DNA of 64,000 nucleotides. Origin: a virus (lineage: Duplodnaviria > Caudoviricetes). Position 1 is the first letter of the stretch. The number at the start of each line of letters is the position of its first letter. The notes under the pieces are model-generated. The model saw nothing but the letters and a program-made list of their open reading frames with translations. It had not been told where the DNA came from and ran no database searches. Location: IMG/VR virus record IMGVR_UViG_3300037067_016568, positions 64,001 through 128,000 of that record, one strand, 5' to 3'. The translations under genes and the position numbers were made by a program. Of this stretch, positions 58,205 through 61,079 are shown piece by piece.

Positions 58205-59617
58205 CTATTGGAGGCTGACCTGCTCTAACGATGCTATAAATCTCAAAAAGTGTTCAGACCATCCGGCAATCTCAGCCGTCCAAACGCCCTTGTAATTGAT
58301 ACCAAGTGCATGCGAGGACACATCAATCACGTAATTCCTTTTGCCGAATGGTTTTGGTTGCCGACGCTCCGGCCAATCACAATCTTGTGAATCGCTGAAA
58401 ATGAGCAACCTGTCTGGCGTCTCCTCTTTTTTACTAATATGTTCACAAACTTGTCTGGTGAAAATACCACCACCGCCCAAATGGTGCTTAAGGTTCAATA
58501 TCTCGTCCGCCAGAGCAAAACCTCGAAGTGGTTTAACTTTTTGAGTATGATGCTCACGCGAATAGTCATTGCCTGCCGTAGCATAAACGGAGATATGATC
58601 GCAACATTCTGCAGCTAAGACAGCCATGGCAGCGGCTGCATCCATTCTCGTGAATTCTGACTTATCGGAAAGTTGATTTCCCATTGAGCCGGAAACATCG
58701 ATCACTAAAGTCGTGAAGCCAGGGAAACGCGGCCACGTCTTGGTGCATCGATACATCAAATCCTCGATTTCTCGTGACCAGTCGGGAGCATACTTTCGAG
58801 CCTGCAAAAAATTTATCGGCAGTAGCATGTCTACCTTACAATTTTTGAAAGCTTTAGCGATTGCATCACGAGACACACTTGCTTTCTGCATATTCCGCAG
58901 ATTCCGCAGGAAAGCAAGTGCTGGAAGCCTCGACGACTCAATCAGTCGCTCCCACACCTTCCGCTTTTCATCTTCGCTTTTAGCTGCAGATAACCCAACT
59001 TCCCACGTATCTGGGACGGCAAGCTCATTGGCGATTAGCCGCTTATATAATCCTTCTCGATCTTTCGTCGGCTTCGCATGTGAGAGGAATAAAACGTCTC
59101 GTAGTTTTACATCTTTATCAAGTCGATTATATTTGGCAAGCTGGTATTCATCAAACTTGCCAAATGCCTGCGCGAGACCCTTTTTTACTTGTGCGGACAA
59201 AGTTTTCAAAACGTCGCCGCCTACCGTTTCGCCATTATCAGACCAATACAGGGCTAAAAACTCGGTCATCTCGTCTGGTCTGTGACAGATCTTAGCAAGC
59301 GTATCGGCGACACCCGGCATCCCATGACGAGCCATTTCACGCACAAGCAATAGCGGGACGTGTCGCAGCTTCTGCTTAAAACGAGCCTCTATAGCCATTT
59401 CGCCAACACATGGAACCTTGGGCACCAGCGCCTTGATTTGCTCAACAATCAGTTCGCCATCACAATATGCATTCTTTTCCCATAATAGGCATGACATAAC
59501 AAGACGGCGCAGGGTAGCTTCGTCACTCTGCTTGGCGGCTCTTGGACCATGGCCACCAGCCAGTCTCTCATCAACATAAACATGCGATTTCTTCGTCTTT
59601 TTATTGATGGTTGCCAT
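58205..59617 (-). CDS. rsr: Ro60-related TROVE domain protein with vWA domain
   Basis: TROVE features (LRHVPLLL, RPDEMTEFLA, FDEYQLAKY, LRDVLFLSHAKP, PDTWE, LAFLRNLRN), vWA MIDAS IDVSGSM..FSDSQ, GWSE; GGAGG SD; adjacent Y RNAs. Confidence 0.95.
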   Translation of the reverse strand: MATINKKTKKSHVYVDERLAGGHGPRAAKQSDEATLRRLVMSCLLWEKNAYCDGELIVEQIKALVPKVPCVGEMAIEARFKQKLRHVPLLLVREMARHGMPGVADTLAKICHRPDEMTEFLALYWSDNGETVGGDVLKTLSAQVKKGLAQAFGKFDEYQLAKYNRLDKDVKLRDVLFLSHAKPTKDREGLYKRLIANELAVPDTWEVGLSAAKSEDEKRKVWERLIESSRLPALAFLRNLRNMQKASVSRDAIAKAFKNCKVDMLLPINFLQARKYAPDWSREIEDLMYRCTKTWPRFPGFTTLVIDVSGSMGNQLSDKSEFTRMDAAAAMAVLAAECCDHISVYATAGNDYSREHHTQKVKPLRGFALADEILNLKHHLGGGGIFTRQVCEHISKKEETPDRLLIFSDSQDCDWPERRQPKPFGKRNYVIDVSSHALGINYKGVWTAEIAGWSEHFLRFIASLEQVSLQ

Positions 59618-59640
59618 CTACGTTATCCTCCGTTACGCTA

Positions 59641-60054
59641 CTGTAGTCCATTCAGAAGTATTCCCTGTAGTCCTGTAGTTAGCTGGGAACGAACGATATT
59701 CTCCATTGCGACCGGCTCAGCATCGTGTTGTCGCACTCCTGTAGTCCTGTAATCCTGGGAACGAACGCTATTCTCCATTTTGGAAACGGCCTAACTCGTC
59801 TATCGTTCCCTGTAGTCCTGTAGTTACCTGGGAACGAACGCTATTCTCCATTAGGGAAACACCTCAGTTGAACCACCTCACTCCTGTAGTCCTGTAATCC
59901 TGGGAACGAACGCTATTCTCATTTTCCTGCGCCAATGGCCTGCTAGACTTCTCCTGTAGTTACCTGGGAACGAACGCTATTCTCCATTCAGACGACCTTG
60001 ATGACCGCCAAGCTTGACCCTGTAGTTACCTGGGAACGAACGCTATTCTCCATT
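59641..60054 (-). CRISPR. CRISPR-like repeat-spacer array without cas genes (6 repeats plus 1 collapsed, 5 spacers)
   Basis: Plus-strand consensus CCTGTAGTTACCTGGGAACGAACGCTATTCTCCATT (36 bp) at 59672, 59746, 59817, 59891, 59953 and 60019. The first four are preceded by an extra CCTGTAGT. Unique spacers are 30, 29, 30, 29 and 30 nt. A collapsed repeat CTGTAGT-CCATT lies at 59641. Strand is inferred from the operon. Confidence 0.7.
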
Positions 60055-60092
60055 TCGCTGTCAGGTGGTTCCCATCACCCTATGTATCAAAA

Positions 60093-60226
60093 ATGCTGCG
60101 GGAACAAGCGAAACAGGCTAGTTTAGCGCTCTGCCAATTGAGCTACACGGACAAGCCGTGATTGGATTCGAACCAACAACCGCTCGATTTCAAGTCGAAG
60201 TAACCCATCTCTACACCACGCAGCAT
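60093..60226 (-). ncRNA. yrlA: YrlA-type Y RNA with circularly permuted tRNA-like domain
   Basis: Terminal stem ATGCTGCG/CGCAGCAT; T-arm GTTGG-TTCGAAT-CCAAT precedes the closed acceptor-like stem CACGG/CCGTG and D-arm GCTC-AATTGGCA-GAGC; next to rsr. Confidence 0.85.
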
Positions 60227-60231
60227 ATTGA

Positions 60232-60299
60232 GAGCCGGGAACAAACTTACACGGCTTTTTCTTCATGGACCGAAGTAACCGTATAATCCACCACGGCTC
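60232..60299 (-). ncRNA. minimal Y RNA lacking the tRNA-like domain
   Basis: Terminal stem GAGCCG/CGGCTC with the same TGGNGNA, GGTTACTTCG and GTTTGTTCCC motifs as the YrlA copies; no T or D arms. Confidence 0.7.
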
Positions 60300-60302
60300 A
60301 AG

Positions 60303-60375
60303 TAGTGGGGGTCGGATTCGAACCGACGACCTGCAGGTTATGAGCCTGCCGAGCTACCAACTGCTCCACCCCACA
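60303..60375 (-). tRNA. tRNA-Met(CAT), initiator-like
   Basis: Cloverleaf TGTGGGGTGGAGCAGTTGGTAGCTCGGCAGGCT-CAT-AACCTGCAGGTCGTCGGTTCGAATCCGACCCCCACTA; U1:U72 mismatch and A11:U24 pair; CCA not encoded. Confidence 0.9.
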
Positions 60376-60378
60376 TCA

Positions 60379-60588
60379 TCAATTGTAAAGCTCCGGATAC
60401 AAACCACGCAAAAAATCTGTGAATTGCACTAACCCACCATACTGATCCAGCAATCCAGATTTGCACGCTCGGTCTTGTATATCCTCTAAAACGAATCTGA
60501 TCTGTGCGTCTGTAACTGGCCGACCATCTGGAAATAATGCTTCCAATCTTTCCAGACGTTGTTCAACTGTTAAATCCGCTGTCTTCAT
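60379..60588 (-). CDS. small hypothetical protein within the Y RNA cluster
   Basis: ~69-aa ORF (LTVEQRLERLEA) filling the gap between a Y RNA and the tRNA. Confidence 0.55.
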   Translation of the reverse strand: MKTADLTVEQRLERLEALFPDGRPVTDAQIRFVLEDIQDRACKSGLLDQYGGLVQFTDFLRGLYPELYN

Positions 60589-60604
60589 CGTTTTTACTTT
60601 CAAA

Positions 60605-60741
60605 TGCTGCGGGAACAGGCGAAACAGGTCAGTTTTAGCGCTCTACCAGCTGAGCTACGTCAGCCGTAGGCTGACGACTGGACTCGAACCAGCGACCTCT
60701 CGATTAGGAATCGAAGTAACCCATCTCTACACCACGCAGCA
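60605..60741 (-). ncRNA. yrlA: YrlA-type Y RNA
   Basis: TGCTGCG/CGCAGCA stem; T-arm GCTGG-TTCGAGT-CCAGT; acceptor-like CGTCAGCC/GGCTGACG; D-arm TAGCTCAGCTGGTAGAGC. Confidence 0.85.
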
Positions 60742-60751
60742 ATATCAAAAA

Positions 60752-60862
60752 TGCCGCAGGAATAAGCGAAGCAGGCTAGTGCTCCCGTGAGCGACGCCCC
60801 CATAAGGGAGGGGGCGATTGGAGTCGAACCAACGAAGTAACCCACTCCTTCGCCATGCGGCA
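60752..60862 (-). ncRNA. yrlA: YrlA-type Y RNA, compact variant
   Basis: TGCCGCA/TGCGGCA stem; GGCGAAGG Ro-site-like motif; T-arm GTTGG-TTCGACT-CCAAT; CGCCCCC/GGGGGCG stem; short D-arm GCTC-ACGG-GAGC. Confidence 0.8.
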
Positions 60863-60878
60863 AGTTCAATTGTCAAAA

Positions 60879-61016
60879 TGCTGCGGGAATAAGCGAAATA
60901 GGCAACGTTAGGTGCTCTGCCAACTGAGCTACACCAGCCGTAGGCTTAGTGACGGGACTCGAACCCGCGACCACCCGCTCCATAGGCGAAGTAACCCATC
61001 TCTGCGCCACGCAGCA
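60879..61016 (-). ncRNA. yrlA: YrlA-type Y RNA
   Basis: TGCTGCG/CGCAGCA stem; T-arm GCGGG-TTCGAGT-CCCGT; D-arm TAGCTCAGTTGGCAGAGC. Confidence 0.85.
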
Positions 61017-61017
61017 G

Positions 61018-61079
61018 TACTATTTAAATACATGCGGCCAATCTTGTCAAGTACTATCATATGACGCCACATGTGTCAA
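61018..61079 (-). promoter_or_regulatory. putative tandem sigma70-type promoters for the Y RNA/array/rsr unit
   Basis: Two perfect minus-strand TTGACA hexamers (61079-61074, 61050-61045). The proximal one starts ~34 nt from the 5' end of the first Y RNA. The -10 boxes are imperfect. Confidence 0.5.

What the first reader, a model, noticed from the sequence alone, without database searches (positions are those of the whole stretch)
60093..61016. Expanded, diversified Y RNA repertoire with interchangeable effector modules
Seen: five RNAs share a scaffold (terminal stem, TGGNGNA, GGTTACTTCG, GYYYRTTCCY) but differ in payload. Three have an extra hairpin plus a full T/acceptor/D mimic with different acceptor-like stems, one has a compact mimic with a 4-nt D-loop, and one has no tRNA domain. 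Established: characterised loci usually have one or two Y RNAs. Inference: the tRNA mimics may decoy host anticodon nucleases or tRNA-sensing defences, or recruit different partners. The series from full to compact to minimal to array repeat looks like progressive reduction of one element.
Basis: partly seen in the sequence, partly recalled or inferred. Interest (0 to 1): 0.7.

Follow-up and report, generated by a model that had tools for sequence, protein, structure and literature searches.

The report
Five Y RNAs before phage Ro60
A giant phage carries five small Y-type RNA genes, four of them with tRNA look-alike inserts, in a row in front of its Ro60 RNA-binding protein gene; this is a real but divergent and rather large example of a known phage arrangement, and the neighbouring repeat array is a CRISPR array, not a shrunken Y RNA.

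Summary
Five minus-strand elements (61016-60094) share one scaffold and lie directly upstream of a TROVE/Ro60 (Rsr) gene in a 185-kb jumbo-phage record.

- **What they are.** Three are full YrlA-type tRNA mimics, one is a compact version and one is a hairpin-only, YrlB-like form. All score below Rfam's YrlA threshold. A model built here finds them strongly, and 29 homologues show heavy covariation.
- **The "extra hairpin".** This is the V arm already described for YrlA. In this phage family it looks like an anticodon arm.
- **"Expanded" is relative.** Tandem sets of 3-7 such RNAs precede Ro60 in other phages (CcrColossus 6-7). In 79 metagenomic loci the maximum found was 4.
- **"Interchangeable modules" is supported.** Element D has nearly the same scaffold as RNAs in two related phages but carries a different insert.
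- **The "array repeat" step is refuted.** That array has the same repeat and a similar leader as the phage's own CRISPR arrays elsewhere in the genome.
- **Decoy function.** Not tested here.

This scan has reported similar phage Ro60-plus-Y-RNA arrays on other DNA. Verdict: a new member of a known kind, of moderate interest.

The parts
61022..61050 (-). Promoter-like site (TTGACA, 17-nt spacer, TTAAAT) ending 6 nt before the 5' end of element E
   Evidence: Read directly. The consensus scan did not list it because its second hexamer lacks A at position 2. A similar TTGACA-N17-TTTAAT box lies upstream of the first Y RNA in relatives L003 and L021. Function is inferred.
60879..61016 (-). Y RNA E: full YrlA-type, with V hairpin, T arm, about 8-bp acceptor-like stem with a bulge, and D arm
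   Evidence: R1 135.6 bits, E 2.9e-32. Rfam YrlA 36.9 bits, local hit. Fold; alignment.
60752..60862 (-). Y RNA D: compact form with no V hairpin, a T arm, a 7-bp acceptor-like stem and a 4-bp/4-nt mini D arm. It carries the exact published GNCGAA-type motif.
   Evidence: R1 69.5 bits, E 2.1e-15. Fold -51.5 kcal/mol, z -4.05. Scaffold nearly identical to L003_Y2 and L021_Y2.
60605..60741 (-). Y RNA C: full YrlA-type, with V hairpin, T arm, 8-bp acceptor-like stem and D arm
   Evidence: R1 147.8 bits. Rfam YrlA 34.4 bits. Fold z -3.08.
60379..60603 (-). Small ORF (74 codons from TTG, 69 from the ATG at 60588) between C and the tRNA; status uncertain
   Evidence: No Pfam or PHROG match. No obvious ribosome-binding site in the sequence. 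Relatives have unrelated small ORFs between the last Y RNA and rsr.
60303..60375 (-). Genuine tRNA-Met (CAU), the only true tRNA in the 185-kb record. It ends 2-3 nt before element B.
   Evidence: Rfam tRNA 65.3 bits; ARAGORN.
60230..60300 (-). Y RNA B: scaffold plus one short hairpin and no tRNA-like module (YrlB-like)
   Evidence: Fold -27.3 kcal/mol, z -4.02, 0 of 200 shuffles. Scaffold motif match. R1 detects it only weakly (26.6 bits, merged with the tRNA).
60094..60225 (-). Y RNA A: full YrlA-type, with V hairpin, T arm, 5-bp acceptor-like stem and D arm. Its 5' part is miscalled tRNA-Ser(tga) by ARAGORN.
   Evidence: R1 134.6 bits. Rfam YrlA 42.5 bits and tRNA 28.6 bits, just under the 29-bit cut-off. 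ARAGORN.
59640..60055 (-). Six-repeat CRISPR mini-array (36-44-nt repeats, 29-30-nt spacers) between the Y RNAs and rsr. It is not part of the Y RNA family.
   Evidence: The repeat core occurs 29 times in the record, in arrays at about 31.6-32.3, 33.6 and 37.1-37.9 kb as well as here. The 36-nt repeat is identical and the leader similar in the 31.6-kb array. The repeat does not fold better than shuffles.
58205..59617 (-). rsr: phage Ro60/TROVE protein (470 aa), the presumed binding partner of the five RNAs
   Evidence: Pfam TROVE 2.2e-15. PHROG 850 RNA-binding protein 5e-31, full length. Matches Thermus phage phiLo Ro60 structures 9L5Y/9KOP at E 4e-12 over residues 23-465. 45% identical to the crAss001 gp96 region.

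Best explanation
The region is a non-coding RNA cluster belonging to the Ro60 (Rsr) gene of a jumbo phage. It encodes five Y RNAs of the bacterial and phage YrlA/YrlB kind: three full tRNA mimics (A, C, E), one compact mimic (D) and one hairpin-only form (B).

Inferred mechanism: all are probably transcribed with the embedded tRNA-Met, the CRISPR mini-array and rsr from a promoter just upstream of E, then cut into single RNAs by host tRNA-processing and other endonucleases. Each RNA is expected to bind the phage Ro60 ring through the shared scaffold, that is the 5' UGGYGNAG strand, the 3' UUCC strand and the terminal stem. The insert projects outward as the effector-binding end, as in the published Ro60-Y RNA-PNPase machine. 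The different inserts (acceptor-like stems of 5, 7 and 8 bp, three different anticodon-like V loops, or no tRNA module) would then give several Ro60 particles with different host partners or different stability.

Shown here: the sequences, folds, covariation, family relationship and synteny. Inferred only: co-transcription, processing, Ro60 binding and partner choice.
For: 1. The Ro60 gene is adjacent and on the same strand.
2. Five elements share one scaffold, and the motif occurs nowhere else in the 185-kb record.
3. Rfam YrlA aligns the T arm, acceptor-like stem and D arm of A, E and C at E 1e-7 to 3e-5.
4. Model R1, built from 7 full elements, scores A, C and E at 135-148 bits and D at 69.5 bits. 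It finds 29 same-strand tandem elements next to rsr in 9 sources, the window included, at E up to 1e-4.
5. On that 29-sequence alignment 93.5% of cells pair, against 43-53% when partners are slid. 37 of 41 pairs show double changes, and 0 of 500 shuffles reach the observed values. An independent MAFFT/RNAalifold run on 7 sequences gives 8 compensatory pairs.
6. The published YrlA landmarks are present: a GNCGAA-type motif (exact in D, 1-2 changes in A, C and E), YUAY before V, and V, T, AS and D stem-loops in that order (PMC4201824 section 6).
7. Hairpin-only partners like B are conserved in relatives (L003_Y2, L021_Y2, L004_Y3). They parallel the published YrlB, Yrn2 and M. smegmatis YrlB.
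8. M. smegmatis YrlA and YrlB are processed from one precursor upstream of rsr (PMC4201824 section 8), and phage phiLo Ro60 binds two upstream Y-like RNAs and host PNPase in vitro (PMC12135203). Both serve as precedents.
Against: - No expression, processing or binding data exist for this phage, and its host is unknown.
- All Rfam YrlA hits are below the gathering score (at most 42.5 against 69), and only the tRNA-like core aligns.
- The promoter is a by-eye call that the consensus scan did not list.
- The alignment used for the large covariation count was fitted to the model, which favours the structure (caveat).
- B is barely detected by R1.
- No PNPase, RtcB or Rnl2 gene was found in the half-genome held, so the effector is unknown.
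Confidence: 0.85

Rival explanations
1. The tRNA-like inserts are decoys or sensors for host tRNA-targeting defences such as anticodon nucleases. Each Y RNA would display a different anticodon-like loop and acceptor-like stem.
For: The V hairpin has anticodon-arm dimensions: a 5-bp stem that covaries and a 7-nt loop. In 21 distinct arms from 16 loci, loop position 2 is U in 18, position 6 is a purine in 21 and position 7 is A in 21, while the middle triplet takes 15 different values. A 5-nt linker like a tRNA variable loop follows, and then the T arm. Paralogues within one phage carry different triplets (UGA, CCU and AUG in the window).
Against: - There is no functional evidence.
- Among the 21 arms scored, the triplets do not concentrate on classic nuclease targets; the single UUU loop lacks the U at position 2.
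- The signature could be a relic of descent from tRNA, or a stable U-turn fold.
- The published view places V as a variable arm (PMC4201824).
- ARAGORN calls on permuted inserts proved non-discriminating.
Confidence: 0.1
2. Some copies, most likely D or B, are decaying duplicates with no function of their own, and the apparent series is just erosion.
For: D lacks the V hairpin and has a minimal D arm, and B has no tRNA module. Relatives with 71-73% identical Ro60 carry only three elements.
Against: - D and B keep a perfect scaffold and fold far better than shuffles (z about -4).
- Hairpin-only forms are conserved in relatives and in distant phages.
- D keeps intact 5-bp T and 7-bp acceptor-like helices.
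Confidence: 0.12
3. The elements are tRNA pseudogenes or a degenerate tRNA gene array.
For: ARAGORN calls tRNA-Ser in A. The Rfam tRNA model scores A at 28.6 and C at 25.3 bits. A true tRNA sits in the cluster. GenBank annotates a tRNA-Gln and a tRNA-Thr inside homologous elements of CcrColossus and Xanthomonas phage 10KY502B.
Against: - The T arm precedes the D arm and the acceptor-like stem is closed by a loop.
- A conserved non-tRNA scaffold with covariation flanks every insert in phages of unrelated hosts.
- The elements always lie next to rsr on the same strand, mostly upstream of it.
Confidence: 0.03

Closest known systems
YrlA Y RNAs (Rfam RF02553; S. Typhimurium, M. smegmatis, mycobacteriophages; Chen et al. 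2014, PMC4201824; structure in bioRxiv 10.1101/312249)
   Same: - Encoded next to rsr on the same strand.
- A 5' GNCGAA-type motif, then YUAY, then V, T, closed acceptor-like and D stem-loops in the same order.
- The D and T arm sequences align to the Rfam consensus.
- The acceptor-like stem varies in length, as published.
   Different: - Scores are below the Rfam gathering cut-off because the Ro-binding flanks differ.
- Both strands of the scaffold helix are conserved.
- The V arm is a regular 5-bp/7-nt anticodon-arm look-alike.
- There are four tRNA-type copies in one locus, including a compact form without V and with a 4-nt D loop.
YrlB / Yrn2 (second, hairpin-type Y RNAs of S. Typhimurium, M. 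smegmatis and D. radiodurans; PMC4201824)
   Same: Element B is a short extended hairpin that shares the Ro-binding motif and is encoded beside a YrlA-type RNA.
   Different: There is no sequence similarity beyond the motif, and B has not been shown to bind Ro60.
Thermus phage phiLo Ro60 with Yrl1 and Yrl2 (PMC12135203; PDB 9KOP, 9L5Y)
   Same: A phage Ro60 with Y-like RNAs encoded just upstream. The window's Ro60 matches these chains over its full length at E 4e-12.
   Different: The phiLo RNAs are not detected by R1 (the only L011 hit lies inside a tRNA-Ser, E 0.9), and there are two of them rather than five.
Tandem Y RNA clusters of cultured phages, found here with R1: Caulobacter phage CcrColossus, Brevundimonas phage Bambus, Rhizobium phage RHph_Y65 and Xanthomonas phage 10KY502B
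   Same: The same scaffold consensus and the same position upstream of rsr. Full and hairpin-only forms are mixed, with 3 to 7 copies per locus.
   Different: These records do not annotate the RNAs, and two annotate part of one as a tRNA. None of the loci examined has a CRISPR array between the RNAs and rsr.

Membership tests
YrlA (Y RNA-like A) | Encoded close to a Ro60/Rsr gene on the same strand | tested here: met
   A ends 476 nt upstream of the rsr start and E begins about 1.4 kb upstream, all on the minus strand.
YrlA (Y RNA-like A) | GNCGAAN0-1G motif near the 5' end (PMC4201824) | tested here: inconclusive
   The motif is exact in D. E differs at one position, and A and C at two. The family consensus across 29 phage elements is GGYGNAG, which includes the published motif.
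YrlA (Y RNA-like A) | Conserved T and D stem-loops with a closed acceptor-like stem-loop between them, T before D | tested here: met
   Met for A, C and E (Rfam local alignments; consensus fold). D has the T arm and acceptor-like stem but a reduced D arm. B has none.
YrlA (Y RNA-like A) | YUAY followed by a V stem-loop upstream of T | tested here: met
   UUAC is present in all five. The V hairpin is present in A, C and E, and all 5 of its pairs show compensatory changes.
YrlA (Y RNA-like A) | Score at or above the Rfam RF02553 gathering threshold (69 bits) | tested here: not met
   42.5, 36.9, 34.4 and 21.7 bits. Every YrlA hit in the comparison phage loci scanned is also below threshold, 28.7-55.9 bits.
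YrlA (Y RNA-like A) | Bound by Rsr and modified like tRNA (pseudouridine 55, dihydrouridine) | not testable with these tools
   This needs immunoprecipitation and modification mapping.
tRNA | Cloverleaf with open acceptor stem, D arm before anticodon arm before T arm, score above the Rfam RF00005 cut-off (29 bits) | tested here: not met
   A scores 28.6 and C 25.3 bits, with mismatched acceptor pairs. Only 60375-60303 is a true tRNA (65.3 bits).
CRISPR array (for the repeat array 59640-60055) | Same repeat as other arrays of the genome, constant spacer length, shared leader | tested here: met
   29 copies of the repeat core in five clusters. The 36-nt repeat is identical, the spacers are about 29-30 nt and the leader is similar. 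The link to the dead-Cas12f genes rests on earlier notes and was not retested.

The most novel reading that the evidence does not exclude
This family of phage Y RNAs is built as complete, circularly permuted tRNAs in which the V hairpin is a true anticodon-arm mimic. The phage would then keep a panel of Ro60-tethered pseudo-tRNAs with different anticodon-like loops and acceptor-like stems, swapped on a constant Ro60-binding scaffold, to engage different host tRNA-binding enzymes or tRNA-targeting defences. Placement of the phage's CRISPR mini-array in the same transcription unit would also link guide-RNA production to the Ro60 particle.
Probability: 0.1. Interest if true: 0.75.

Novelty: new member of a known kind. 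Interest (0 to 1): 0.4.

Why it matters
**Annotation.** A whole subfamily of phage Y RNAs falls under the Rfam YrlA threshold and so goes unannotated, or is half-annotated as tRNA, for example in CcrColossus and a Xanthomonas phage. The model built here recovers these RNAs in phages of Caulobacter, Brevundimonas, Xanthomonas, Rhizobium and Streptomyces hosts and in dozens of metagenomic phages.

**Biology.** The locus offers a compact natural set for asking what the tRNA-like end of bacterial Y RNAs binds, which the published work leaves open. It provides one scaffold with four insert types in one phage, and a fifth insert type on a near-identical scaffold in two related phages.

**Origin of Y RNAs.** The anticodon-arm-like V hairpin and the D-arm-like 5' strand fit the published idea that YrlA arose from a dimeric tRNA transcript (bioRxiv 10.1101/312249, discussion).

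Tried and rejected
1. **Rfam at gathering thresholds** found only the tRNA-Met. At permissive thresholds YrlA hits appear but stay sub-threshold.
2. **ARAGORN on in-silico permuted inserts** (cut in the acceptor-like loop, scaffold removed) called a tRNA in 18 of 29. With the V hairpin shuffled it still called a tRNA in 635 of 900 constructs. The test does not discriminate, so it is not used as evidence for V being an anticodon arm.
3. **The array repeat as a minimal Y RNA** was rejected for four reasons:
   - It is the same repeat as the genome's other CRISPR arrays.
   - It shows no stable fold.
   - By eye, the spacers do not form a consistent terminal stem.
   - R1 has no hit there.
4. **RNA-repair partners:** no RtcB or Rnl2-type ligase was found in the 185-kb record, which is only about half the genome.
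5. **Neighbouring ORFs** (508, 160, 345, 297 and 184 aa) have no Pfam or PHROG match, and the three of them searched against PDB sequences (508, 345, 297 aa) have none there.
6. **Literature access:** the reviews by Sim and Wolin (2018) and Sim et al. (2020) and the supplement of Chen et al. 2014 are not held. I therefore could not check whether multi-copy phage clusters or the anticodon-like V loop are already described there.
7. **The consensus promoter scan** did not list the site I read by eye upstream of E.

Full report
**Setting**

The window is bases 64001-128000 of a 184,768-bp IMG/VR virus record judged about 51% complete, so it is a jumbo-phage fragment. Everything discussed lies on the minus strand. 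In 5' to 3' order:
- a promoter-like site at 61050-61022
- element E (61016-60879)
- element D (60862-60752)
- element C (60741-60605)
- a 74-codon ORF (60603-60379)
- tRNA-Met (60375-60303)
- element B (about 60300-60230)
- element A (60225-60094)
- a six-repeat array (60055-59640)
- a 470-aa ORF (59617-58205)

That ORF is a Ro60/Rsr orthologue. The evidence is Pfam TROVE at 2.2e-15, a full-length match to PHROG 850 "RNA-binding protein" at 5e-31, a full-length match to the Thermus phage phiLo Ro60 structures 9KOP and 9L5Y at 4e-12, and 45% identity to the crAss-like phage TROVE proteins.

**Observation check**

The five elements align on a common frame. The frame is a 7-bp terminal stem, a one-base bulge, a GG:CC clamp, an asymmetric internal loop, a second stem of 8-11 bp, then a variable insert.
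- The 10-nt box is exact five times, and only here.
- A fixed-spacing scaffold pattern hits exactly five times in the whole record.
- Single-sequence folds give this architecture. Z-scores are about -4 for B and D and -3.1 for C. They are weaker for A (-1.8) and E (-1.0), where the minimum-energy fold competes with alternatives.

**What the elements are**

At gathering thresholds Rfam reports only the tRNA-Met. At permissive thresholds the YrlA model aligns the T arm, closed acceptor-like stem and D arm of A, E and C (42.5, 36.9 and 34.4 bits; E 1e-7 to 3e-5) and weakly D (21.7 bits). All are under the 69-bit cut-off, because only model positions 23-89 align.

The published YrlA description lists a 5' GNCGAA-type motif, a conserved YUAY, then V, T, AS and D stem-loops, with V "less conserved" and read as the variable arm (PMC4201824, section 6). 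A, C and E have all of these in that order. D has the exact published motif, no V, and a shrunken D arm. B resembles the second, hairpin-type Y RNAs (YrlB, Yrn2) of the three characterised bacteria.

**Relatives and covariation**

Three phages with 70-73% identical Ro60 carry the same RNAs upstream of rsr. These are L003 (364 kb), L004 (234 kb) and L021 (388 kb).
- Seven full elements aligned by MAFFT give a 41-pair consensus with 8 compensatory pairs.
- Model R1, built from them, scores A, C and E at 135-148 bits and D at 69.5 bits. It finds nothing else in the record.
- In annotated phages R1 finds same-strand tandem elements in the gap before rsr: six to seven in Caulobacter phage CcrColossus, four in Brevundimonas phage Bambus, four in Rhizobium phage RHph_Y65, three in Xanthomonas phage 10KY502B and two in Streptomyces phage Quantum.
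- On the 29-sequence alignment 93.5% of cells pair, against 43-53% with slid partners. 37 of 41 pairs have double changes, and no shuffle reaches the observed values.
- That alignment is fitted to the model, which flatters the structure. The margin is nevertheless large, and the independent 7-sequence fold agrees.

**How unusual is five?**

R1 was run over 79 further Ro60 loci from viral metagenomes, with 2.5-kb flanks. Thirty-two loci had hits: 22 with one, 5 with two, 3 with three and 1 with four.

The window's five is therefore in the upper tail, and only CcrColossus exceeds it in my sample. R1 was trained on this clade and is less sensitive elsewhere, so the comparison is biased in the window's favour. 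Real tRNAs interleaved with Y RNAs also occur in L028. This scan has already reported arrays of four to seven Y-like RNAs in front of phage Ro60 genes on other DNA.

**Modularity**

D's scaffold is nearly identical to that of the second RNA of L003 and L021. They share the terminal stem, the 5' 30 nt and the 3' 18 nt, with only a few differences. D carries a T arm, a 7-bp GC-rich stem and a mini D arm, whereas the other two carry a V hairpin and a 4-bp GC hairpin.

Other loci show T-only and D-only inserts. This supports a constant Ro60-binding frame with exchangeable or reducible inserts. The direction of change is unknown.

**The V hairpin**

In 21 distinct V arms from 16 loci the stem is 5 bp and the loop 7 nt. 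Loop position 2 is U in 18, position 6 is a purine in 21 and position 7 is A in 21. The three middle positions take 15 different values.

A 5-nt linker resembling a tRNA variable loop follows, and then the T arm. This is the signature of an anticodon arm. It explains why tRNA finders call the 5' part of several elements as tRNAs:
- ARAGORN in A, L003, L008 and L026
- the GenBank tRNA-Gln of CcrColossus and tRNA-Thr of 10KY502B, both inside R1 hits

It also fits the published proposal that YrlA descends from a dimeric tRNA transcript (bioRxiv 10.1101/312249, discussion). Whether the signature is functional mimicry or a relic cannot be decided here. My attempt to test it with ARAGORN on permuted inserts failed its control.

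**The array**

The repeat core of the array at 60055-59640 occurs 29 times in the record. The other copies lie in arrays at about 31.6-32.3, 33.6 and 37.1-37.9 kb. The 31.6-kb array has the identical 36-nt repeat, spacers of about 29-30 nt and a similar leader. Earlier notes on this genome assign those arrays to a nuclease-dead Cas12f system; I did not retest that.

The repeat does not fold better than shuffles. The array is therefore a fifth CRISPR mini-array, not the end point of a Y RNA reduction series. Its short resemblance to the scaffold motifs is best read as chance. Its position between the Y RNAs and the rsr start codon, on the same strand, is unusual. L003, L004 and L021 have small unrelated ORFs there instead.

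**Mechanism and limits**

Identity as Y RNAs of the YrlA/YrlB kind is well supported (confidence 0.85). Co-transcription, processing punctuated by the tRNA, Ro60 binding through the scaffold and recruitment of different partners by the inserts are all inferences. They rest on the published systems (PMC4201824; PMC12135203) and on the anatomy. No RtcB or Rnl2-type ligase was found in the half-genome held, so an RNA-repair link is not supported. The decoy idea remains a minority reading.

**Verdict**

This is a real, divergent and comparatively large member of a known kind.

Noticed in passing
window 59640-60055 (minus strand): A six-repeat CRISPR mini-array with the same 36-nt repeat and a similar leader as the phage's arrays 86-92 kb away sits between the Y RNA cluster and the rsr start codon. 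Three close relatives lack it. Read-through from the Y RNA promoter would put guide RNAs, Y RNAs and the Ro60 mRNA on one transcript.
   Followed up: partly
window 60303-60375 (minus strand): The only true tRNA in the 185-kb record is a tRNA-Met(CAU) inside the Y RNA cluster. By eye it has initiator-like traits: an unpaired 1:72 position, A11:U24, and two of the three G:C pairs in the anticodon stem.
   Followed up: partly
L007 2673-2740 (NC_019406, CcrColossus) and L008 3286-3353 (OQ622092, Xanthomonas phage 10KY502B): The GenBank features tRNA-Gln and tRNA-Thr lie inside strong R1 hits (97.3 and 95.1 bits) and are probably the 5' parts of Y RNAs miscalled as tRNAs. ARAGORN makes the same kind of call in the window (60152-60226), L003, L008 and L026.
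   Followed up: partly
L003 3336-3390; also L021 about 1577-1630 and L004 about 1438-1490: A conserved hairpin of about 50 nt (z -3.8 in L003) follows the first Y RNA in the three close relatives and is absent from the window. It could be another small RNA or a processing signal.
   Followed up: no
window 3' ends of A, C, D and E (e.g. 60093-60085, 60878-60872): Each Y RNA ends in the terminal stem followed at once by a run of 3-5 U, and the same holds in most elements of the relatives. This may be a processing or protein-binding signal, since the long-range stem is not a classical terminator hairpin.
   Followed up: no
L005 4919-5825 (crAss001, NC_049977): In crAss-like phages the non-coding gap lies downstream of the TROVE gene. 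It gives only a split tRNA-model hit (46.6 bits with a long insertion) and weak R1 hits. Their partner RNAs, if any, appear to be built differently.
   Followed up: no
L003 2570-2990: In the relative L003, the ORF upstream of the Y RNA cluster looked to me, by eye and from memory, like a NADAR/YbiA-type domain protein. It is not conserved at that position in the window.
   Followed up: no
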